Below are positions 5,793-17,560 of a DNA stretch of 21,078 nt, in pieces; positions within the stretch are counted from its first letter, which is position 1; every line of letters begins with the position of its first letter. Source of the DNA: a virus; UHGV virus genome UHGV-0370164, one strand, 5' to 3'. A model generated the notes under the pieces. That model was not told where the DNA came from. It was given only the letters and a program-made list of their open reading frames with translations, and did no database searches. The translations under genes and the position numbers were made by a program.

Positions 5793-6182
5793 ATGATTGA
5801 CGCTCATGACTTCACAAGATGGGTGCGCACACAGGACACCCGTCTGGCTCCCGTTCTTCAGGGATTATTTGATCTCTACATCCGTGGTCGTGACAACAGA
5901 GCACGCACCACAAAACCGGAGAATGCAGACACCCTTTATTTCACAGTAGACGACTGCTACCGCGTGGACTTCACACCACACGGGCTGGCGTTGCACTGCC
6001 TGACACCACACGGCGAATCACTGCTGGCGTATTACGACTCCCCGGCCTCCATATTTGCGGCAATGCTGGCGCATCGCACTGCTGGCGGGTGTGCCTCGCT
6101 GAGTGAATACTCCGCTGAATTTAACCGCCTTTCCGCCCTCTTCTCACAGGAGTGGCAGCGCGTGACGGGATACCAGCCATGA
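5793..6182 (+). CDS. Hypothetical early protein upstream of gpA
   Basis: 129-aa ORF; its stop overlaps the gpA start (ATGA at 6179-6182). Confidence 0.55.
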   Translation: MIDAHDFTRWVRTQDTRLAPVLQGLFDLYIRGRDNRARTTKPENADTLYFTVDDCYRVDFTPHGLALHCLTPHGESLLAYYDSPASIFAAMLAHRTAGGCASLSEYSAEFNRLSALFSQEWQRVTGYQP

Positions 6183-9019
6183 GTGCGTTTGCATGGAGCT
6201 GGAATGAACCACGGCCAGCCATTGATCCGGCCAGATTTACGGAGCGCAGGCAGGAAACTGAAACCGACCTGCAACGCGCCATCCGTTACTACCTTGAGGC
6301 AAACAAAAGGGCACAGGAAGAACAGGAAGCGAAGGAAGAAGCCTTTTTCGCACAATCCACCGTGGGTAAAAAACTCATGGCATCCCTTGAGGAAGCCGGA
6401 CAGCGTGAAAAGCTGGCACAAAGCATCATCAGCAAGCGTCAGGCAACAGAACAAGACCCGGTGGCCCGTGCTTTTGCCACACTGAAGGTGCTTCCCGTTT
6501 ATCTGCGTGAACCTCTGAGCCGCCACCTCTCTTTTCTGCGCAAGAAGCAGGAAGCCGATCGTCAGAAAGGCAAAAAGAGCTGGCAGGCTGAACGCTACGC
6601 GCGCGGAACCCTGCGCAAAATATTCGAACGTCTGGACCGCACCGACAGCCGCTGGCTGACACCGGGCTATCGCTCCCTTGCCGGACGCGAACGCCTGGAC
6701 GATTTGCTTTACCTGCCGCAGCTCAACAAACACCAGATACAGACGCTGGCCACCATGACGGCGGCGATGTTCAGTGGCACTTTTGAAAAACTCTGCGATG
6801 GCTTTGGCGCGACCGATGGCGAGCTGACCATGGATGTAACGCTGAAGGCGTATCAGATGCTGGCCCGCATGGCGTTACACCTGCACGCTATGCCTCCACA
6901 TTATGACGCTCTGACAACAGACAAAGACCGGAGGAATGAACCGGACACGGAGCTGCTGCCGGGCGCAATCCTTCGCCTGACCTGTGCGGAATGGTGGAAA
7001 CGCAAACTGTGGCTGTTACGTTGCGAGTGGAGAGAAGAACAACTCCGCGCCGCCTGTCTGGTTTCCAGAAAAACATCACCCTATCTGAGCCAGGACGCGT
7101 TAAGCGAGTTTCGCGCACAGCGCGAGAAAACACGCGATTTCCTGAAAAGTTTCATGCTGGAAAACGAAGACGGGTTCACGATTGATCTCGAGACAGTGTA
7201 TTACGCGGGAGTAAGTAACCCGATTCACCGTAAGGCAGAAATGATGGCCACCATGAAGGGGCTGGAACTTCTGGCCGAAGCCCGTGGCGACAGAGCGGTG
7301 TTTCTGACTGTCACCTGCCCGTCAAAATACCACGCCACAACAGAGAACGGTCATCCGAATCCCAAATGGAACGGGGCCACCATGCGCGACTCCAGCGATT
7401 ACCTGGTTAACACGTTTTTTGCGGCGGTCCGCAAGAAACTGAACCGCGACGGCCTGCGCTGGTATGGCATCCGCACGGTGGAGCCTCACCATGACGGCAC
7501 CGTGCACTGGCATATGATGGTCTTTGCTCATCCGGAAGAAATCGACACCATTGTGTCCCACACCCGCGATATTGCCATTCAGGAAGACCGCCACGAGCTG
7601 GGCAATGATATTACTCCGCGCTTTAAGGTGGAGTATGTCGACGGCTCAAAAGGCACGCCAACCAGCTACATCGCCACCTACATCGGAAAGAACCTGGACA
7701 GCCGCGCCGTGGATGGCATCGACCCGAAAACGGGCAAGCCACGCGTTGACCACGAAACCGGAAAATCAATGGCCGAGAGCGTGGAACGCGCCATCGGCTG
7801 GGCACGCCTTCACCGGGTCCGCCAGTTCCAGTTCTTTGGCATCCCCTCCCGTCAGGTATGGCGTGAACTCCGCCGCCTTGCCAGCCAGATGGCACGCAAC
7901 CCGGAAGGCCCACAACGGCTGAAGGATGATGCAATGGATGCGGTACTCGCTGCCGCTGATGCCGGATGTTTTGCCACCTACATTGAAAAACAGGGTGGCG
8001 TACTTGTTCCGCGCAAGGACTACCTGATTCGCACAGCCTACGACCTCGCAGATGAGCTGAACGATTACGGCGAACAGAGTGTACAGATTTACGGGATCTG
8101 GTCGCCATTCATCGGGGAATCCTCCCGTGTGTGCACGCATCCGGATAACTGGAAGCTGGTAAGACGTAAACCGGAAGCGGAAGACAGCGCCCGCGAAAAT
8201 GGTTTTGACCTTCAGGGCGGCCCTGCCGCCCCTTGGACTCGTGGCAATAACTGTCCCCGTGTACAGGAAACAGGCAACAACGGGACAGAACAGCCGGAAG
8301 AACGGCCAGCACCGTGGCCGCAGCTTCCTGACGGCGTTGAAGTAAATGAATGGATGCGCTCACTGAAACGGCACGAACGCCGGGCGCTGATGCGTTCGCT
8401 TCGTGACAAACAGGCAAAAAACAGCAGCGATGAAATGCAGAACTGGACACAGAGCCGCAAACAGCAGCGGCCTTTGCCTGATAACCACGAGTTACTCGCT
8501 AAAGAATGGCGGGAGTCTGCTGAATCTCTCGGCCTGCATATCGGTGAACAACAGATGCAGCACCTGTTACGGGGCGGCAGTCTGTACGTTGACGGCAGCA
8601 TCATTGCACCGCAGGGATTTGAAATTGTACGCAAACCGGATACCCGCCCGGACAGCCGAATCACGCAGCTCTGGCAGCGTCTGAGCCGTAATCATGGCGT
8701 AAGCAGCACGGAGATCCGCCATAACCCGGTCGCCAGCTATCTGGCACAGCTGGGGGCATCAGACCCTGAAGCCGCCGCACGCCTGGCATCCACACTTCAG
8801 CAGGACCAGAACACCATGAAAACACCCGTTACCGTGCTTTCTGACATGCTGCGCGCCATCCGCGACGCAGAGCACGCACAGAGAATCAGTGAAACCACTG
8901 AACGCGCCAGCCGCAAAGCAGACCTGCTGCGGGGTGGCCTGACCAGTGGAAACAAAAAACAGACAGAAACGGGACTCACGAATCCCGTAAATGAGCAAAA
9001 AACGCGCAGCGATATATGA
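6179..9019 (+). CDS. Rolling-circle replication initiator, P2 gpA-like
   Basis: 946 aa from the ATG at 6179; HUH-type motif (GTVHWHMMVF) and paired tyrosines (TSYIATYIGKN) typical of the gpA family; Q/R-rich C-terminal tail. Confidence 0.85.
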   Translation: MSAFAWSWNEPRPAIDPARFTERRQETETDLQRAIRYYLEANKRAQEEQEAKEEAFFAQSTVGKKLMASLEEAGQREKLAQSIISKRQATEQDPVARAFATLKVLPVYLREPLSRHLSFLRKKQEADRQKGKKSWQAERYARGTLRKIFERLDRTDSRWLTPGYRSLAGRERLDDLLYLPQLNKHQIQTLATMTAAMFSGTFEKLCDGFGATDGELTMDVTLKAYQMLARMALHLHAMPPHYDALTTDKDRRNEPDTELLPGAILRLTCAEWWKRKLWLLRCEWREEQLRAACLVSRKTSPYLSQDALSEFRAQREKTRDFLKSFMLENEDGFTIDLETVYYAGVSNPIHRKAEMMATMKGLELLAEARGDRAVFLTVTCPSKYHATTENGHPNPKWNGATMRDSSDYLVNTFFAAVRKKLNRDGLRWYGIRTVEPHHDGTVHWHMMVFAHPEEIDTIVSHTRDIAIQEDRHELGNDITPRFKVEYVDGSKGTPTSYIATYIGKNLDSRAVDGIDPKTGKPRVDHETGKSMAESVERAIGWARLHRVRQFQFFGIPSRQVWRELRRLASQMARNPEGPQRLKDDAMDAVLAAADAGCFATYIEKQGGVLVPRKDYLIRTAYDLADELNDYGEQSVQIYGIWSPFIGESSRVCTHPDNWKLVRRKPEAEDSARENGFDLQGGPAAPWTRGNNCPRVQETGNNGTEQPEERPAPWPQLPDGVEVNEWMRSLKRHERRALMRSLRDKQAKNSSDEMQNWTQSRKQQRPLPDNHELLAKEWRESAESLGLHIGEQQMQHLLRGGSLYVDGSIIAPQGFEIVRKPDTRPDSRITQLWQRLSRNHGVSSTEIRHNPVASYLAQLGASDPEAAARLASTLQQDQNTMKTPVTVLSDMLRAIRDAEHAQRISETTERASRKADLLRGGLTSGNKKQTETGLTNPVNEQKTRSDI

Positions 9020-9095: not shown

Positions 9096-10055
9096 ATGAA
9101 AATTTACATCGACGACGGCTCCACCAACATCAAGCTGGCATGGACTGAGAACGGCGAACGCCGCAACGCCATCAGCCCGAACAGCTTCAAGTCGGAATGG
9201 TCTGCGCCGTTCGGTGGCTCGCAGCCTGCTAACTACATGCTTGATGGCGTGCGCTATGGTTTTGATCCGGTCAGCGATCGCTTTGTCCAGACGACCGACA
9301 CGCAATACCAGTACAGCGATGTGAATGTCATTGCCATTCATCACGCGCTGGTCAAATCAGACATCACGCCACAGGAAGTGGATGTGGTTGTTACCCTGCC
9401 ACTGAGCGAATATTTCGACACAAACGCACAGCCGGACATGGCCAACATCAACCGCAAAAAAGCGAACGTCATGCGCCCGGTGGAGTACCAGAACGGCGAA
9501 GCATTCACTATCCGTAACGTACGGGTTATGCCTGAATCCATTCCGGCTGGCTTTAAAGCACTGGCTGACATGAGTCCGTTTGAATCCCTGCTGATTGTGG
9601 ATTTGGGCGGAACCACGCTGGATGTGGCAAAGGTTCAGGGGCAACTGGCAGGTATCAGCCAGGTGTTTTGCGATCCACACGTAGGCGTTTCTCTTATGGC
9701 CGATGCCGTACTGTCGGTGATGGCCACTAACGGTATGCGCACCAGTCACCACATCGCCAATACCATTATCGAACATCGCCATAATGAAGCCTGGCTGCGC
9801 CAGCACATCCACAATGACGCGCATTACGCCAGCCTGATGGCGGTTATTCGTGAAAAGGAAGAAACACTGAAACAACGCGTGATCCGCGCGCTGGCGGTTT
9901 TTTCGGGTTACGGGCGGGTGATGGTTGTCGGTGGCGGGGCGGAGATTGTGGCACCCGCTATCCGCGAAGCCTGCGGAGTTAATGCGACTTTCATCGCGGA
10001 CGGGGTGCCACAGTTTGCTCTGGTTAATGGGCTGTACGCAATGGACAAGGAGTAA
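9096..10055 (+). CDS. parM: ParM/StbA-family actin-like partition ATPase
   Basis: 319 aa; matches plasmid R1 ParM as recalled along its length (IDDGSTNIKL, ISPNSFK, YSDVNV, VMPESIPAG, DLGGTTLD, GVSL, GGGAE, LVNG); AAGGAAAA Shine-Dalgarno. Confidence 0.9.
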   Translation: MKIYIDDGSTNIKLAWTENGERRNAISPNSFKSEWSAPFGGSQPANYMLDGVRYGFDPVSDRFVQTTDTQYQYSDVNVIAIHHALVKSDITPQEVDVVVTLPLSEYFDTNAQPDMANINRKKANVMRPVEYQNGEAFTIRNVRVMPESIPAGFKALADMSPFESLLIVDLGGTTLDVAKVQGQLAGISQVFCDPHVGVSLMADAVLSVMATNGMRTSHHIANTIIEHRHNEAWLRQHIHNDAHYASLMAVIREKEETLKQRVIRALAVFSGYGRVMVVGGGAEIVAPAIREACGVNATFIADGVPQFALVNGLYAMDKE

Positions 10056-10059
10056 ACCA

Positions 10060-10371
10060 ATGACGACACCAACCAGACGGATAAGTTTCTATCTGAAGCC
10101 CGCCGCCGTCAAGAACGAAGGAGAAGCATGCGCCTGGCTGGACAGCCTTACACCAGAAGCCCGCAAAAGCGGCCAACGCGTGGCTTTTCTGGCCGGGCTG
10201 GCACTTCTGAAGACGAATCCGGCAGAGGCTTACCGACTGGCCGCATGGGCTGATGATGAGATGTTACCTGTGACACAAATCAGCTCAAAAAAGTTTGAAG
10301 CACAGTCTGCACCAGTGGCTAAGATAACCAGCCAGATGGCTGGGAATATCCGGGCGTTATTTCCTGAGTAA
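10060..10371 (+). CDS. parR: ParR-like partition adaptor/repressor
   Basis: 103 aa from the ATG 4 nt after the parM stop; N-terminal RRISFYLKP...AC.WLDSL...ER...LAGLAL and C-terminal IRALFPE resemble R1 ParR as recalled. Confidence 0.8.
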   Translation: MTTPTRRISFYLKPAAVKNEGEACAWLDSLTPEARKSGQRVAFLAGLALLKTNPAEAYRLAAWADDEMLPVTQISSKKFEAQSAPVAKITSQMAGNIRALFPE

Positions 10372-10499
10372 AAGCATCTGCGCGAAAAATGCTCACGTTT
10401 ATAGAGACAGTATCATTCCATTTGGCACACTTACTTCAATAATCGATCTGTTAAACAAATAGATTGTCTATTATCTATCGATTAAAACGATCAATTATC

Positions 10500-10527
10500 T
10501 TGACAGTAATGTGCCTTTTTGTAAGAT
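10500..10527 (+). promoter_or_regulatory. Near-consensus sigma70 promoter
   Basis: TTGACA (10500-10505), 16-nt spacer, TAAGAT (10522-10527); imperfect palindrome AATAGAT...ATCTAT just upstream. Confidence 0.45.
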
Positions 10528-10633
10528 CGTTCGCATTGTGAGCGACAAGATAATTGCGCGGCATTGTCCATGCAAAACGCCCCAATAGCAGCAACTATTG
10601 GGGCGTAAAACTCGGTCGGACTCACTTAACCTG

Positions 10634-10719
10634 ATATGCGTGCCTTCCGAAGTAAATCAAAATGTGCGTCGTATATTTTATTGCTTACACGCACCTCTGT
10701 AAAGGCACGCATATTTTTC
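10634..10719 (+). terminator. Large stem-loop with U5 tract in the leader (attenuator/terminator or small RNA 3' end)
   Basis: Perfect 13-bp inverted repeat ATATGCGTGCCTT (10634-10646) / AAGGCACGCATAT (10702-10714) enclosing an inner GTGCGT/ACGCAC hairpin, followed by TTTTT (10715-10719). A 12-bp-stem hairpin lies at 10577-10606. Confidence 0.4.
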
Positions 10720-10735
10720 CTATGAGGTAAATAAA

Positions 10736-11005
10736 GTGCGGGCTAAAACAGGTATTTGCAAGAACCCTCATCGTTATAATCCAACATTTCTGTCTCTCCC
10801 TGAATATCAAGGACAAGAAGGTCGGCACAAATGCGCTGCCTGTGCTTTTGAGCTAGGCATAAAAGATGCGCTTGAAGGACGCGCTATGGCTCAGAATGAT
10901 TTAGTTTTAGCTAACATTCCGTTTAGCCAGGCTGGAACTGTAAGGCACAGAGATGCCTATGAAGCATATGTTCGTGGTTGGCGATTAATAAACAGCAACA
11001 ATTGA
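10736..11005 (+). CDS. Small Cys/His-containing protein, unknown function
   Basis: 89 aa; GTG start with GAGG Shine-Dalgarno 8 nt upstream; CKNPH...HKCAAC suggests metal binding; followed by a terminator. Confidence 0.5.
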   Translation: MRAKTGICKNPHRYNPTFLSLPEYQGQEGRHKCAACAFELGIKDALEGRAMAQNDLVLANIPFSQAGTVRHRDAYEAYVRGWRLINSNN

Positions 11006-11014
11006 TACTTTTGA

Positions 11015-11037
11015 AGCGCCGATAAGGCGCTTTTTTT
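11015..11037 (+). terminator. Intrinsic terminator
   Basis: AGCGCC / GGCGCT stem with GATAA loop followed by TTTTTTT, 10 nt after the stop at 11005. Confidence 0.7.
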
Positions 11038-11490
11038 GTTTGCACGATAGTGCACAAGTTTGCACAATTTTTTTGAACGACTTTTTGTACTTCCGGCCCG
11101 CGTGGTGGCTGGATCCGTCAAGGATCCGTACGTGCACAAAAAAACGCGTTTTTTCTGCGCGCAGGTGACGGGGGAACAGCCCGCGTTTCAGGGGGTAAAT
11201 AGCATCCCCTGAACGATGTCGCAGCGACACAACAGAATGGCTGTATTTCTCACGCTGAGCGTGAAAAAGACGTGAGGGCTTTTGATTTGATGGGTGGCAG
11301 ATAAGGCCGTCAAAATCGCACTGAGGCGGCGAGAACATGCAGTCAACGCGGTGGGATTGCGTAAGAGTCTGACCGCCGATGATGACAATAAGCAGAAAAG
11401 CGTCGTGAAATTATCTGATTGATACAGGAGCTGGAGAGTCGGGGCATAAATTTTTTATGCCCCGGCGAAGCAGCAGACAAGCGAAGCGCG

Positions 11491-12537
11491 TCAGGATGTG
11501 GGCTGGGTATCTAGCAGTGCGTAAGGGTTAAAGCGGATCACCTCTTCGCCAAGCCAGTCATTGATGTGCTTCATGGCCTCCATGACGGGCATCAGCTCGT
11601 TAATTGCGTAAACCCGCGCGGCCTTCTCCACATCACCAAACGCACTTTTTTCGCCCGGCATCGCCCCCATCAGTTGCGGCGGAACGCGGTGCGCAGCCAG
11701 CACATCATCACGGGATGCCGCCTTAACATTCATGAACTCATCCTTTGCAGTGATCTGCTGGAACGGCAAAATTTGCACACCTTCTTTGCCCCCGTTGGGC
11801 GCATGGATGAGTACGTTTTTAAACGCACCACCACCACGCGCGCCCTGTAACGTTTCTTTCAGGGAGTCCATGCTTTCGCGGTTTACCTGCGCTGCACCGA
11901 TGTAGATGATGCACCCGGCGTGGGATCCGTTGTCGTAGTACAGTTTTCTGAACATGTCCGCCGAATGAGAAAGGCTGGCCGAGAGTAATGCGCCAAGATA
12001 TTCCGGCATGCCGTAGATTTCCTGGTTAATATCCGGATTCATCAGGTGGCACACTTTGCCAGGGCGAAACTGGAACGCGTCCTTGCCATCCTGCACATAC
12101 CACCATGATTCAAGATCGCTTCCGCGTCGCATGTATTTCGCCAGGGCGTGCCGTAATTTAAGCGGTTCGCCGAGCATATTGCTTCTAAGCTCAAGGAATG
12201 CGTTACCGAACACAAACCAGTCCAGCGCCAGCGCCGAGAAATCCTGCCGGGAAAGCAGCGGGTGCGGGATGTAGCAACCGAGTAATACATTGCGCTTAAA
12301 GTAAAGCGCAGACTGATGCCAGGACGTTTGCCGGGCTGCTCTTGCCAGACCGTACCAGTCCACCGGGGTTTCATACCACCGTCCGTTATCAGCACAGTAC
12401 ATATTGTCCAGCAGGTCATGCCCGGTCAGGCGATAAGGACCATCAAATGTGAATGCACTGAGCGATGATTCTTTCCTGAGCGCATCAGCGAGATCAATGC
12501 GTGAACTCATGCGCACTTTTTTATTTTTTCTGCTCAT
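11491..12537 (-). CDS. Portal protein, P2 gpQ-like
   Basis: 348 aa, right size for P2 Q; directly downstream of and overlapping the terminase gene on the same strand. Called from context and size. Confidence 0.85.
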   Translation of the reverse strand: MSRKNKKVRMSSRIDLADALRKESSLSAFTFDGPYRLTGHDLLDNMYCADNGRWYETPVDWYGLARAARQTSWHQSALYFKRNVLLGCYIPHPLLSRQDFSALALDWFVFGNAFLELRSNMLGEPLKLRHALAKYMRRGSDLESWWYVQDGKDAFQFRPGKVCHLMNPDINQEIYGMPEYLGALLSASLSHSADMFRKLYYDNGSHAGCIIYIGAAQVNRESMDSLKETLQGARGGGAFKNVLIHAPNGGKEGVQILPFQQITAKDEFMNVKAASRDDVLAAHRVPPQLMGAMPGEKSAFGDVEKAARVYAINELMPVMEAMKHINDWLGEEVIRFNPYALLDTQPTS

Positions 12538-14849: not shown

Positions 14850-16982
14850 ATGAGTACCACAACACGAAAATTTAAAACCGTTATCACCGATACAGGTGCA
14901 AAAAAATTAGCTCAGGCAGCCGCGCCAGATGGTAAGCCTGTCCGCCTGACTCATATGGCCGTGGGCGACGGTGGCGGCGCGTTGCCCACACCAGACAGTA
15001 AGCAGACCCGTCTGGTGCATGAGGTGTGGCGACACACTGTTAATCGCGTCATCCTGGACGCAACACATCAGAACCGCATTATTGCGGAGCTGGTTATTCC
15101 TCCAGAAACGGGCGGATTCTGGATCCGGGAAATTGGTGTGTTTGATGAGCACGGCGATTTAATCGCGGTGGGCAATACTGCCGAAAGTTACAAGCCAGCC
15201 GTTGCCGAAGGGTCCGGACGTGCACAAACATTTCGCACCATTCTGACCGTATCCAGCACTGCCACTGTGGCGCTTACCGTGGATAACACCATGGTGATGG
15301 CCACAGTGGATTACGTGGATAACAAACTGAAAGAGCATGAACAGTCACGATGTCACCCGGATGCCTCGCTGACCGCAAAAGGCTTTGTTCAACTCAGTAG
15401 CGCCACTAACAGCGATTCTGAAACGCTGGCTGCAACGCCGAAAGCGGTTAAGGTCGCGTATGATCTTGCTAACGGAAAATATACAGCGCAGGATGCCACA
15501 ACAGCGCGAAAAGGCCTTGTCCAGCTTAGTAGTGCAACCAACAGTACATCTGAAACGCTGGCGGCAACATCAAATGCAGTAAAAGCTGCCTATGACAATG
15601 CTGAAAAACGTCTGCAGAAAGCTAAGAATGGTGAGGATATCTCTGATAAAGACACCTTTACGAAAAATATCGGTGCCTGCCGTGCATATAGTGCAGAGCT
15701 GAATATTGGTGGAGATAGTGAAGCATGGACAACTGCGCAGTTGATTTTTTGGCTAGAGAGTCAGGGGGCATTTAACCATCCTTACTGGATGTGCAAAGGC
15801 TCATGGGCTTATGCAAATAATAAGGTCATTACAGATACAGGTTGCGGAAGTATTTGTCTTGCAGGTGCTGTTGTGGAAGTTATTGGCACCCGCGGCGCAA
15901 TGACCATACGCATTACCACACCGAGTACATCCAGCGGTGAAGGCATCCCTAATGCTCAATTTACTTATATTAATCATGGTGATGCTTATGCTCCTGGCTG
16001 GCGAAGGGACTATAACTCCAGGAATAAGCCAACAGCATCAGAGATCGGGGCGTTACCGTCAGATGGGACAGCAGTATCGTCAGTTAATCTGGCTTCAAAA
16101 GGTCGGCTGACCGCCCTGACAGATAATATGCAGGGGGCCACAGGTCTGGAGTTATACGAGGCGTATAACAACGGATATCCAACAACGTATGGAAATATCA
16201 TTCACCTGAAAGGGATGACAGCCGTTGGCGAAGGCGAATTACTCATCGGCTGGAGTGGTATAAGCGGTGCTCATGCTCCGGCATTTATTCGTTCACGACG
16301 GGATACGACCGACGCAAACTGGTCGCCGTGGGCGCAGCTTTACACCTCGGCTCATCCTCCTGAAGAGTTTTATCCAGTCGGTGCACCGATTCCGTGGCCA
16401 TCAGATACCGTTCCGTCTGGTTATGCCCTGATGCAGGGGCAGACTTTTGACAAATCTGCATACCCGAAACTTGCAGTCGCTTATCCGTCAGGCGTTATTC
16501 CTGATATGCGTGGCTGGACGATTAAGGGCAAGCCCGGCAGTGGTCGTGCCGTATTGTCTCAGGAACAGGACGGCATTAAATCGCACACCCACAGCGCCAG
16601 CGCATCCAGTACGGATTTGGGGACGAAAACCACATCGTCGTTTGATTACGGTACTAAAACGACCAGTTCATTTGATTACGGCACAAAAACTACGAATAGC
16701 GCTGGAAATCATTCACACAATATACCTGTTGGTCACACTGGCGCGGGGAATGGTGTATCAGCCGGTTATAACGCTGCGTTAGGTACTGGTACCACGTCGA
16801 GCGCAGGCGAGCATGCTCACAATGTATATATCGGTGCCCATAACCACACTATCGGCATTGGTGCTCATGCCCATTCTGTCATTATTGGTCCCCACGGACA
16901 CACCATCACCGTTAACGCTACGGGTAACGAAGAAAACACCGTAAAAAACATCGCATTTAACTATATTGTGAGGCTTGCATAA
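14850..16982 (+). CDS. Tail fibre protein, P2 gpH-like, with His-rich distal domain
   Basis: 710 aa; conserved N-terminal fibre domain ([48 protein letters not shown]) and duplicated [17 protein letters not shown] segment; C-terminus has HxH-type repeats. Confidence 0.9.
16620..16694 (+). repeat. Tandem 30-bp coding repeat in the tail-fibre gene
   Basis: 2.5 copies encoding [10 protein letters not shown] / [10 protein letters not shown] / GTKTT; copies differ at synonymous sites. Confidence 0.6.
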
Positions 16983-17560
16983 TGACATTCAGAATGAGTG
17001 AACACTCACGGACCATAAAAATTTATAATCTACTGACCGGAACCAATGAGTTTATTGGTGAAGGTGATGCATACATTCCACCTCATACAGGTCTGCCTGC
17101 AAACAGTACCGATATTGCCCCGCCAGATATTCCGGCTGGCTTCGTGGCCGTTTTCAACAGTGATGAGGCATCGTGGCATCTCGTTGAAGACCATCGGGGT
17201 AAAACGGTTTATGACGTGGCATCAGGGGACTCGTTATTTATTTCTGAACTCGGTCCATTACCGGAAAATGTTACCTGGTTGTCGCCGTATGGAGAGTATC
17301 AGAAGTGGAACGGCACATCCTGGGTGAAAGATGCAGAAGCAGAAAAACTGTTTCGGATAAGGGAGGCGGAAGAAACAAAAAACAGCCTGATGCAGGTAGC
17401 CAGCGAGCATATTGCGCCACTTCAGGATGCCGTAGATTTGGATATTGCAACGGAGGAAGAGGCATCGTTACTGGCTGCATGGAAGACATACCGGGTATTG
17501 TTGAATCGTGTTAATACAGCGGTAGCAGCGGATGTTGAGTGGCCAGTCGCCCCACAATAA
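16982..17560 (+). CDS. Tail fibre assembly chaperone, gpG/Tfa-like
   Basis: 192 aa; start overlaps the H stop (TAATG); position and size fit a fibre assembly protein. Confidence 0.8.

What the first reader, a model, noticed from the sequence alone, without database searches (positions are those of the whole stretch)
10500..11037. Self-contained unit: strong promoter, structured ~185-nt leader with U-tract, small Cys/His ORF, terminator
Downstream of a near-consensus promoter the transcript would form a 12-bp-stem hairpin and then a long hairpin (13-bp perfect outer stem) ending in TTTTT, directly before the ribosome-binding site of an 89-aa ORF that has its own terminator. It reads as either a small RNA or an attenuator controlling a small metal-binding protein. 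It sits in the same A-to-Q cargo locus as ParMR.
Basis: partly seen in the sequence, partly recalled or inferred. Interest (0 to 1): 0.55.

Follow-up and report, generated by a model that had tools for sequence, protein, structure and literature searches.

The report
Antisense-controlled prophage zinc-protein gene cassette

Summary
The unit (10372-11040) fills the one variable slot between parR and the cos/portal region of a P88-like (Xuanwuvirus) prophage. ParMR itself is core, not cargo.

The main correction concerns the opposite strand. A near-consensus promoter (TTTACA-17-TAAAAT, 10703-10675) sits inside the long hairpin. The "12-bp hairpin" reads as that transcript's terminator, which predicts a ~97-nt non-coding cis-antisense RNA. 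This promoter is kept at the same position in 10 of 10 otherwise unalignable gammaproteobacterial leader types, against 3 of 38 other lineages. In 12 of 13 types a very stable hairpin follows it. No Rfam family matches.

The ORF belongs to a widespread, unnamed family (173 clusters at 50% identity) with conserved Cys/His residues and a confident model that has no structural relative. About half of the genomic relatives lie inside DpnII-type (GATC) restriction-modification operons. Others precede a DUF4062 NADase or are fused to nucleases and regulators.

No transcript data were available. The direction of antisense control and the protein's function are inferred.

The parts
10372..11040 (+). 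The whole cassette, which fills the variable cargo slot between the parR stop codon and the conserved TGCAC-repeat/cos-proximal region
   Evidence: Homology with phage P88 and other Xuanwuvirus genomes stops at the parR stop and resumes at about 11041. The cassette is present almost unchanged in 166 of 5426 complete E. coli genomes.
10439..10498 (.). Imperfect inverted repeat (two 26-nt arms) directly upstream of the -35, with one GATC in each arm (10445, 10489). It is a candidate operator.
   Evidence: (I1). It is conserved in the divergent relatives L004/L005. It is absent from P88, which has the same ParMR, so it is not parC.
10500..10527 (+). Sense promoter TTGACA-16-TAAGAT. A GATC (10525-10528) overlaps the -10. 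The predicted start is about 10534.
   Evidence: 10 of 12. Conserved as TTGACA-16-TAGGAT in L004/L005. Comparable + promoters with starts at -169 to -201 occur in most other leader types.
10534..10735 (+). Structured 5' leader of the ORF mRNA, about 201 nt
   Evidence: -68.9 kcal/mol, z = -3.8, 0 of 200 shuffles as stable.
10577..10606 (-). 12-bp GC-rich hairpin, read as the intrinsic terminator of the antisense RNA (followed on the - strand by UUUUGCAU). Its complement forms stem-loop 2 of the sense leader.
   Evidence: I4; z = -3.9. It gives sub-threshold Rfam hits on the minus strand to the terminator hairpins of the antisense RNAs ctRNA_pGA1 and sar. An equivalent hairpin ends 62-104 nt after the predicted antisense start in 12 of 13 leader types. 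In L062 the hairpin occupies the same position as in the window (-130 to -159 from the start codon; for L062, window coordinates).
10572..10669 (-). Predicted cis-antisense small RNA of about 97 nt, complementary to leader positions about 38-135
   Evidence: Promoter plus terminator. No conserved ORF lies on this strand in 13 leader types. No Rfam family matches. No transcript data are available.
10675..10703 (-). Antisense promoter TTTACA-17-TAAAAT, lying inside the long hairpin
   Evidence: 10 of 12. TTTAC(A/T), a 17/18-nt spacer and a (T/C)AnnnT -10 are kept at -40 to -60 from the conserved Cys codon in 10 of 10 gammaproteobacterial leader types while the spacers differ. The shuffle expectation is 0.08-0.19 per type (product about 1e-10). 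In other lineages 3 of 38 have a hit.
10634..10719 (+). Long hairpin (13-bp perfect outer stem, inner 6+3-bp stem) followed by UUUUU. It is a candidate attenuator, and it houses the antisense promoter.
   Evidence: I3; z = -4.9. L004 has a different-sequence 12-bp stem followed by AUUUUAUU at the same place. The feature is not seen in the L062 and L092 types.
10724..10728 (+). Shine-Dalgarno GAGGT, 7 nt before the GTG start
   Evidence: 'GAGGTAAAT' is also present in L004.
10736..11005 (+). 89-aa ORF (here called 'z'). It is basic (pI 9.2) and hydrophilic, with conserved C8, H12, R30, H31, C33, C36, Q65, R70 and H71.
   Evidence: Matches phrog_3941 at E = 9e-49, with no Pfam, NCBIfam or PADLOC match. 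173 representative clusters have E <= 1e-3. The AlphaFold2 model has pLDDT 92.7. No fold relatives were found.
11013..11037 (+). Intrinsic terminator of the ORF (8-bp stem, 5 GC pairs, T-run)
   Evidence: A terminator also directly follows the ORF in L039.

Best explanation
The region is a mobile 'moron' cassette that a P88-like temperate phage carries in its only variable slot.

A sigma-70 promoter with GATC sites in and around it (10500-10527) drives an mRNA with a ~200-nt structured leader. That mRNA encodes z, a small basic, probably zinc-binding protein, and ends at its own terminator.

Inside the leader a convergent promoter (10703-10675) makes a ~97-nt non-coding antisense RNA.

The antisense RNA is perfectly complementary to the middle of the leader. 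The target includes stem-loop 2 and the 5' arm of the long hairpin, but not the RBS. It most likely holds z expression down post-transcriptionally, either by duplex formation followed by RNase III cleavage and decay, or by changing whether the hairpin/U5 attenuator forms. Interference between the two convergent promoters may add to this.

Shown: the sequence elements, their statistical exceptionality, their positional conservation across diverged relatives, and the cassette's mobility among unrelated prophages.

Inferred: that both RNAs are made, that the antisense RNA regulates z, and the sign of that regulation.

The biochemical role of z is unknown. Its genomic company (GATC-specific DpnII-type restriction-modification operons, a DUF4062 NADase, nuclease and regulator fusions) suggests a nucleic-acid-binding accessory or regulatory module of defence systems.
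For: Cassette:
- The slot boundaries are sharp, and the slot holds different contents in P88, in the window and in L004/L005.
- The same ORF family with its own promoter and terminator sits next to CI-type repressors (L047, L041), beside UmuD-like and DNA-polymerase genes (L051), and next to lysis-like genes, in a position I read as between Q and the lysis genes (L039).

Antisense RNA:
- The minus-strand promoter matches 10 of 12 positions.
- The -35 is TTTACA in 14 of the 16 representatives and TTTACT in the main Gilliamella type. The -10 always has A2 and T6. The 17-nt spacers are unrelated in sequence.
- 10 of 10 leader types have the promoter, against a chance expectation of 0.08-0.19 each. 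Only 3 of 38 non-gamma lineages have one.
- A strong hairpin (z = -2.0 to -5.2) lies 62-104 nt downstream in 12 of 13 types. It has canonical U-runs in the window, L004, L062, L065 and L092.
- No conserved ORF lies on that strand.
- Rfam's nearest sub-threshold hits are terminator hairpins of known antisense RNAs, on the minus strand.

Leader structure: z = -3.8 for the whole leader and -4.9 for the long hairpin.

ORF:
- It is conserved across phyla.
- The structure model is confident.
- 36 of the 41 genome loci that have an identified neighbour carry DpnII-type R-M genes, among about 78 loci with the ORF. The ORF lies 0-20 nt upstream of the R gene in about 12 of them.
- Other relatives precede a DUF4062 protein. 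That domain is reported as an antiphage NADase (preprint PMC13174449).
- Fusions exist to HNH_2, a PD-T4-1/PDC-S36-like nuclease, DpdB/DndB and WYL.
Against: - No RNA-seq, TSS or Northern data were available, so both transcripts are predictions.
- The antisense terminator in the window has only about 4 U (UUUUGCAU). In several relatives (L039, L041, L047 types) the hairpin is followed by UUCCC rather than a U-run, so termination there may be inefficient or the hairpin may serve another purpose.
- The leader types share ancestry, so the 1e-10 figure overstates independence.
- The antisense RNA does not cover the RBS, so the regulatory mechanism is indirect and its sign is unknown. Pairing with the 5' arm of the long hairpin could equally relieve attenuation.
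- The hairpin plus U-tract before the RBS is not universal (absent in the L062 and L092 types).
- Near-identical copies carry too little variation to test covariation.
- Zinc binding and any DNA binding by z are untested.
Confidence: 0.62

Rival explanations
1. Sense-only control. The leader is a plain transcriptional attenuator or a stand-alone ~185-nt + strand small RNA ending at the 13-bp hairpin/U5, and z is made only by read-through. The minus-strand promoter match would be non-functional or irrelevant.
For: The long hairpin is highly stable (z = -4.9) and is followed by U5 directly before the RBS. L004 keeps a hairpin plus a U-rich tail with a different sequence, and L043 also has a hairpin followed by UUUU.
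Against: This does not explain why TTTACA-17-TAnnnT is kept at a fixed position in all 10 leader types while the surrounding sequence diverges. It also does not explain why the first hairpin has a U-run only on the minus strand. The 55-nt interior is atypical for an intrinsic terminator, and the scan did not call it. The hairpin/U-tract is missing in the L062 and L092 types. This reading is not exclusive of the antisense model.
Confidence: 0.15
2. Type I toxin-antitoxin module, in which z is a toxin whose mRNA is neutralised by the antisense RNA, stabilising the prophage.
For: The architecture resembles that of type I toxin mRNAs: a long structured 5' UTR with a cis-antisense RNA made from inside it. 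In L062-type loci the same front end precedes a DUF4062 NADase effector, which could be toxic (preprints found).
Against: z has 89 aa, is hydrophilic (GRAVY -0.57) and basic, and has no membrane helix. Across phyla it sits inside R-M operons without any such RNA (3 of 38 lineages have the promoter), which is not how toxins behave. It gives no PADLOC or Pfam toxin match.
Confidence: 0.07
3. A Dam-methylation-sensitive (epigenetic) switch is the primary control. Methylation of the GATC sites in the operator-like repeat and in the -10 decides whether the sense promoter fires, and the antisense RNA plays only a minor part.
For: The window has three GATCs within 84 bp, at 10445, 10489 and 10525. 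The last overlaps the -10, and the first two lie one in each arm of the inverted repeat. Across 13 loci there are 35 GATCs in 300-nt upstream regions against 12.6 expected, at recurring positions around both promoters. The protein family is tied to GATC-specific R-M systems. From established knowledge, Dam sites in -10 regions control IS10 pIN, and Dam controls finP/traJ.
Against: The L062, L065 and L092 types have 0-1 GATC. In the window and in L004 the antisense promoter has none. Upstream regions of R-M-linked z genes show only weak enrichment (19 against 10.7). There is no experimental evidence. This reading is compatible with the main model rather than a replacement for it.
Confidence: 0.1
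4. The inverted repeat and promoter are the ParMR centromere (parC) or a ParR-regulated element, and the ORF is incidental.
For: The element lies immediately downstream of parR and contains repeated ATCGAT/GATC motifs.
Against: Phage P88 has ParM and ParR proteins of the same lengths and annotation but lacks this sequence entirely. The repeat occurs only in loci that carry the z cassette. The promoter points away from parMR.
Confidence: 0.03

Closest known systems
Phage 'morons' (autonomous promoter-gene-terminator cassettes in temperate phages, first defined in HK97/lambda-like genomes) and the P2 cargo hotspots (tin/old locus; Rousset et al. 2022, PMC9122126)
   Same: It has its own promoter and terminator. 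It is inserted between conserved genes next to cos, with alternative contents at the same slot in sister phages. The same cassette also appears in unrelated prophages next to CI-type repressors and next to lysis-like genes.
   Different: The host phage is P88-like (Xuanwuvirus) with a core ParMR, not P2. The cargo matches no known defence system and carries an internal antisense RNA gene.
Cis-antisense control of mRNA leaders: CopA/CopT of plasmid R1, FinP/traJ, IS10 RNA-OUT/RNA-IN, hok/sok, and the attenuation systems of pT181/pIP501
   Same: A short (~70-100 nt) antisense RNA is made from a promoter inside the 5' leader. It ends in a GC-rich terminator hairpin whose complement is a stem-loop in the target, giving loop-loop (kissing) potential. 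As in IS10 and finP/traJ, Dam (GATC) sites sit in the promoters. As in pT181/pIP501, a terminator-like hairpin lies just upstream of the RBS.
   Different: There is no sequence or Rfam similarity. The antisense RNA stops at least 30 nt short of the RBS. There is no convincing leader peptide. The antisense promoter is embedded between the arms of the terminator-like hairpin. The regulated gene is neither a replication, transfer, transposase nor toxin gene.
Controller (C) proteins of type II restriction-modification systems
   Same: In about 12 of the R-M-linked loci the z gene lies 0-20 nt upstream of the restriction gene of a DpnII-type operon, the classic C-gene position. It is small and basic.
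   Different: z has no helix-turn-helix and a different, unmatched fold with conserved Cys/His residues. In other loci it lies after the operon or convergent to it. No C-box analysis was possible. In the window there is no R-M system at all.
Ribosome modulation factor (RMF), the best but non-significant fold match
   Same: One half of the model superposes weakly on RMF (2jrm, TM 0.52 on the target; a phage RMF appears). It shares an 'A-Y/H-x-x-G-Y-x-x-G' helix motif.
   Different: The matches are not significant (Foldseek E = 0.9; hhalign probability 5.8%). RMF lacks the Cys/His set and the SQAG-x-RHK motif.

Membership tests
Phage moron / cargo-hotspot cassette | Own promoter and own terminator flanking a gene that is not part of the conserved phage backbone | tested here: met
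   Promoter at 10500-10527 and terminator at 11013-11033. Homology with sister phages breaks exactly at 10372 and about 11041.
Phage moron / cargo-hotspot cassette | Alternative contents at the same slot in related phages, and the same cassette in unrelated phages | tested here: met
   P88 carries two other genes, and L004/L005 carry a z homologue plus a 95-aa gene. z cassettes also occur in CI-repressor-adjacent and lysis-gene-adjacent contexts.
Cis-encoded antisense sRNA regulating an mRNA leader | A promoter on the opposite strand inside the leader, conserved among relatives | tested here: met
   10 of 10 leader types, against 3 of 38 in other lineages.
Cis-encoded antisense sRNA regulating an mRNA leader | An intrinsic terminator that delimits a short non-coding transcript | tested here: inconclusive
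   A strong hairpin is present in 12 of 13 types and no conserved ORF is present. The U-tract is short in the window (UUUUGCAU) and is replaced by UUCCC in several types.
Cis-encoded antisense sRNA regulating an mRNA leader | A detectable transcript with a regulatory effect on the target | not testable with these tools
   No transcriptome data are accessible. No paper describing it was found.
Any curated RNA family (Rfam 15) | Covariance-model match at the gathering score | tested here: not met
   There is no hit in 10300-11500 on either strand. The best is ctRNA_pGA1 at 22.1 bits against a threshold of 45. None was found in 18 related loci.
Type I toxin-antitoxin | A small hydrophobic or membrane-active (or otherwise toxic) peptide as the target gene | tested here: not met
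   z has 89 aa, GRAVY -0.57 and pI 9.2, with a soluble helical model. Toxicity itself was not tested.
Intrinsic-terminator attenuator | A stable hairpin plus U-tract between the promoter and the RBS | tested here: met
   10634-10714 followed by UUUUU, z = -4.9.
Intrinsic-terminator attenuator | A mutually exclusive antiterminator conformation or effector, conserved in relatives | tested here: inconclusive
   No convincing alternative fold was found (z = +0.8). The hairpin/U-run is seen in the window, L004 and L043 but not in L062 or L092.
R-M controller (C) protein | Helix-turn-helix DNA-binding fold | tested here: not met
   No HTH Pfam match. The model has no structural relatives.
R-M controller (C) protein | Gene located just upstream of, and co-oriented with, the restriction gene | tested here: met
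   This holds for about 12 DpnII-type loci. It does not apply to the window, which has no R-M genes.
ParMRC centromere (parC) | A repeat array that accompanies the parMR genes wherever they occur | tested here: not met
   The repeat is absent from P88, which has ParMR, and is present only with the z cassette.
Known anti-phage defence systems (PADLOC 2.0) | Profile match of the protein | tested here: not met
   No PADLOC hit for z.

The most novel reading that the evidence does not exclude
z would be the founding member of a new zinc-binding nucleic-acid-binding fold that acts as a sensor or controller module for GATC-specific restriction-modification systems and other defence effectors (DUF4062 NADase, HNH and PD-(D/E)xK nucleases). 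In temperate phages of Dam+ enterobacteria it would have been captured as a stand-alone cassette. Its expression would be set by a two-layer switch: Dam-methylation-sensitive convergent promoters plus a new cis-antisense small RNA. This would let the phage or prophage read the GATC-methylation state of DNA, either to modulate restriction or to exclude incoming phages.
Probability: 0.15. Interest if true: 0.75.

Novelty: new variant of a known kind. Interest (0 to 1): 0.6.

Why it matters
If the antisense RNA is real, it is a conserved, uncatalogued phage-borne regulatory RNA family. It travels with one gene through P2-like and lambdoid-type prophages of Escherichia, Providencia, Proteus, Enterobacter, Pantoea, Klebsiella, Citrobacter, Serratia and Gilliamella.

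The gene it controls belongs to a large unnamed protein family with no structural relatives. That family is embedded in DpnII-type restriction-modification operons and is fused or adjacent to defence nucleases and an NADase. Working out what z does would therefore annotate a recurrent accessory component of restriction and defence systems.

It could also show how a prophage uses such a component. The cassette is small (670 bp) and present in about 3% of complete E. coli genomes, so it is easy to test.

Tried and rejected
- Rfam: searched the window at gathering and permissive thresholds, and 18 related loci. Nothing matched the leader on either strand.
- Protein libraries: Pfam, NCBIfam and PADLOC gave nothing for z. 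Only PHROG 3941 ('unknown function') matched.
- Word-indexed protein search: found only two near-identical clusters. The exhaustive HMMER search was needed.
- Source names: every named member is called 'hypothetical protein'.
- RMF resemblance: tested by hhalign and rejected (probability 5.8%). A profile search against PDB sequences gave zero hits.
- Covariation in near-identical copies: 13 distinct variants carry almost no substitutions in the helices, so the test is uninformative. Leaders of different types cannot be aligned, so I used positional and structural conservation instead of building a covariance model.
- parC/ParR-operator idea: rejected because P88 lacks the repeat.
- Leader peptide: a 12-codon ORF (10570-10608) spans the first hairpin, and similar 10-codon ORFs occur in the Gilliamella loci. 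It has no Shine-Dalgarno sequence and is not kept in L004, L039 or L047.
- Coding capacity of the antisense transcript: no conserved ORF.
- GATC enrichment upstream of R-M-linked z genes: weak, so 'z binds GATC' stays speculative.
- Literature searches on Xuanwuvirus, P2 hotspots, DpnII controllers and Dam/antisense/prophage found no description of this gene or RNA.
Full report
**1. Context**

The window is a P88-like (genus Xuanwuvirus, Peduoviridae) prophage of E. coli. On the + strand it carries:
- the replication endonuclease gene A (6152-9019; Phage_GPA, E = 1e-129);
- parM (9096-10055);
- parR (10060-10371; Plasmid_stab_B).

The portal gene Q (11491-12537) is on the - strand.

The 10372-11490 interval matches phages 520873 and 503458 end to end. 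P88 and other relatives match only from window position ~11041 onward. Annotated relatives all carry ParM and ParR. ParMR is therefore backbone, and the variable slot is only 10372-11040. Slot contents differ between relatives:
- P88 holds two unrelated small genes.
- L004/L005 hold a diverged copy of the present unit plus a 95-aa gene.

The present unit occurs in 173 of 5426 complete E. coli genomes, always on the chromosome. In 166 of them it is at 95-100% identity over at least 80% of its length.

**2.

- Promoter: TTGACA-16-TAAGAT at 10500-10527.
- First hairpin: perfect 12-bp stem, 10577-10588 / 10595-10606.
- Long hairpin: perfect 13-bp outer stem, 10634-10646 / 10702-10714, followed by TTTTT.
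- Translation signals: GAGG, then GTG at 10736, giving an 89-aa ORF that ends at 11005.
- Terminator: 11013-11033.
- Folding: the leader folds better than all 200 shuffles (z = -3.8). The long hairpin alone has z = -4.9.
- Annotation: PGAP calls the same 89-aa protein in an identical copy.

Promoter-like matches as such are not enriched in the region (2 found, 2.5 expected). The case for the promoters rests on conservation.

**3.

The second promoter-like site in the region is on the minus strand. It reads TTTACA-17-TAAAAT at 10703-10675 and lies between the arms of the long hairpin.

On the minus strand the 12-bp hairpin is followed by UUUUGCAU. On the plus strand it is followed by UAAAAC. 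Together these predict a ~97-nt RNA running from ~10669 to ~10572, antisense to the middle of the leader. It folds with z = -3.9. Rfam's best sub-threshold hits are the terminator hairpins of the antisense RNAs ctRNA_pGA1 and sar, on the minus strand.

**4. Comparative test**

I collected relatives of the ORF from three sources:
- an exhaustive HMMER search (173 clusters at 50% identity);
- 80 loci from GTDB species genomes;
- IMG/VR.

In Enterobacterales and Gilliamella the gene is a stand-alone cassette, or in the L062 type the first gene of a two-gene operon. The leaders fall into about 10 types that cannot be aligned with each other.

*Antisense promoter.*
- In all 10 types a minus-strand promoter sits at -40 to -60 from the conserved Cys codon.
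- The -35 is TTTACA (TTTACT in the main Gilliamella type).
- The spacer is 17 nt (18 nt in one type) and unrelated in sequence between types.
- The -10 always keeps A2 and T6.
- Shuffled leaders give such a hit in that window 8-19% of the time (product ~1e-10). This overstates independence, because the types share ancestry.
- Among 38 leader lineages from other phyla only 3 have a hit, about the chance level.

*Downstream hairpin.*
- In 12 of 13 types an unusually stable hairpin ends 62-104 nt downstream of the predicted start (z = -2.0 to -5.2).
- It has canonical U-runs in the window, L004, L062, L065 and L092 types.
- In the others it is followed by a conserved UUCCC(U/A)UAU tail.
- In the L062 type the hairpin occupies the same coordinates relative to the start codon (-130 to -159) as in the window (window hairpin).

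*Other checks.*
- No ORF is conserved on the antisense transcript.
- Rfam has nothing for any type.
- Near-identical copies have too few substitutions for a covariation test.

*Sense side.*
- Most types have a + promoter with a predicted start at -169 to -201.
- A GC-rich stem-loop 2 is present (the complement of the antisense terminator).
- A 5' stem-loop is visible by eye in several types, but I did not quantify it.
- L004 has a different-sequence 12-bp stem followed by AUUUUAUU where the window has its 13-bp stem followed by U5.
- The L062 and L092 types lack a hairpin/U-run before the RBS.

**5. GATC sites**

The window has GATC at 10445 and 10489, one in each arm of the 26-nt inverted repeat just upstream of the -35. 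A third at 10525 overlaps the -10.

Across 13 loci the 300 nt upstream of the gene hold 35 GATCs against 12.6 expected. They recur around the sense promoter and, in many types, in the spacer and near the start of the antisense promoter. The L062, L065 and L092 types lack this.

The inverted repeat travels with the cassette and is absent from P88. It is therefore not the ParMR centromere.

**6. The protein**

- z is basic and hydrophilic (pI 9.2, GRAVY -0.57).
- C8, H12, R30, G41, Q65, R70 and H71 are invariant. H31, C33 and C36 are at least 90% conserved in 43-45 sequences.
- It looks like two half-repeats. The first is '...Q-x-G-x-G-R-H-K-C-x-x-C-A-Y-x-x-G'. The second is a Cys-less 'S-Q-A-G-x-V-R-H-K-x-x-x-x-A-Y-x-x-G-Y'.
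- AlphaFold2 with this alignment gives pLDDT 92.7.
- A weak RMF resemblance is not significant.

**7. Genomic company**

*Neighbouring genes.* Among about 78 genome loci with the ORF, 41 have at least one identified neighbour.
- 36 of the 41 have DpnII-type R-M genes within a few kb: a D12-class Dam-like methylase, a DpnII endonuclease, an N6_N4 methylase, or in 3 loci a D12 methylase with a PDDEXK_11 nuclease.
- The arrangements vary: (M1)-z-R-M2 with z 0-20 nt upstream of R, M1-R-M2-z, or convergent.
- In the L062, L068 and L081 loci z precedes a DUF4062 protein. Two 2026 preprints report DUF4062 as a TIR-like antiphage NADase (PMC13174449 read). Neither mentions a small partner.

*Fusions with other domains.*
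- Two z units fused to HNH_2 or HNH.
- Two z units fused to a nuclease domain that matches PDC-S36/PD-T4-1/TmtA.
- DpdB/DndB fused to z.
- HTH-WYL fused to z.

*Prophage context.* The stand-alone cassettes lie next to CI-type repressors (L047, L041), beside UmuD-like genes (L051), and next to lysis-like genes in L039. I read the L039 position as between Q and the lysis genes from the ORF sequences, which I did not profile.

All of this points to a defence-associated accessory, sensor or regulator module. None of it shows what the stand-alone phage copy does.

**8. Mechanism**

I commit to the following model. It is a moron cassette in which a conserved cis-antisense sRNA, made from a promoter inside the leader, limits expression of z.

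The RNA does not reach the RBS, so it must act indirectly. The options are:
- cleavage of the ~97-bp duplex by RNase III, followed by decay;
- remodelling of the hairpin/U5 element, whose 5' arm (10634-10646) lies inside the target;
- interference between the two convergent promoters, which are ~135 bp apart.

The sign of regulation is open, because sequestering the 5' arm could also abolish attenuation. After removal of the 5' arm the remaining RNA has no notable alternative fold.

Dam methylation is a plausible second input.

My confidences are as follows:

| Claim | Confidence |
|---|---|
| The cassette and ORF are real | ~0.95 |
| The antisense RNA is made | ~0.75 |
| The antisense RNA regulates z | ~0.6 |
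| The regulation is negative | ~0.4 |
| z has a role linked to restriction or defence | ~0.5 |

**9. Comparison and novelty**

In kind this resembles known antisense-controlled leaders (CopA/CopT, FinP/traJ, IS10 RNA-OUT with Dam-sensitive pIN, hok/sok, pT181/pIP501 attenuation) and phage morons. It is a member of none of those families by sequence or by Rfam model.

It fails the defining toxin feature of type I toxin-antitoxin systems and the helix-turn-helix feature of R-M controller proteins.

I rate it a new variant of a known kind. The regulatory logic is familiar. The RNA family is uncatalogued, the protein family is unnamed with an unmatched fold, and its linkage to GATC R-M systems is unreported in the literature I could search.

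Noticed in passing
window 17325-17523 (+): Full-length Rfam match to IS009 (RF02111, 192 bits, E = 1e-46). It lies inside the 192-aa ORF 16982-17560 of the phage morphogenesis region.
   Followed up: no
window 11038-11075 and 11110-11128: Three TGCAC-containing repeats (GTTTGCACGAT / TAGTGCAC / GTTTGCACAAT) mark the right edge of the cargo slot and are conserved in P88. They are followed by a direct repeat GGATCCGT x2 that holds two GATCs. One phage record (P884B11) begins near window position 11086-11090, so the cos site may lie here.
   Followed up: partly
L003 (phage P88) 3293-3960: The same slot in P88 holds two other small genes. By eye, the first has a Cys-x2-Cys ... Cys-x2-Cys pattern like the ClpX N-terminal zinc-binding domain (the record's own note mentions ClpX). 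A different small probable zinc protein thus occupies the same position. Neither gene matches PADLOC.
   Followed up: partly
L004 4626-4913 and L005 4614-4901: In the diverged slot variant the z homologue (unannotated in RefSeq, L004 4281-4559) is followed by a conserved 95-aa protein with no Pfam match. L004 also has an Ogr/Delta-like zinc-finger gene before the portal gene.
   Followed up: partly
window 10570-10608 (+); L041 and L044 leaders: A 12-codon ORF (MQNAPIAATIGA) starts just before the 12-bp hairpin and stops just after it. The Gilliamella loci have 10-codon ORFs (MGKPDTPISG / MGKPDIGVSG) that span the equivalent hairpin. It has no Shine-Dalgarno sequence and is not kept in L004, L039 or L047.
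   Followed up: partly
Leaders of L039-L051, L041/L044, L182/L184: Two conserved motifs were seen. TAAG(C/T)TGATC(A/T)TTTT lies just upstream of the sense -35. A palindromic GATC motif (GAGATCTC or GTGATCAC) lies at the predicted antisense start. Both are absent from the window's antisense promoter. In the same types the sense leader has 'AUA(U/A)GGGAA' directly before stem-loop 2.
   Followed up: partly
window 10492-10502 / 10546-10556: A perfect 11-nt inverted repeat (CAATTATCTTG / CAAGATAATTG) brackets the sense promoter. The left arm overlaps the -35. It is not conserved in L004.
   Followed up: no
L002 (phage 503458, NC_049341): This deposited genome has single-base deletions in the cassette, and many of its backbone genes are split into fragments. 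Sequencing errors look more likely than real pseudogenes.
   Followed up: no
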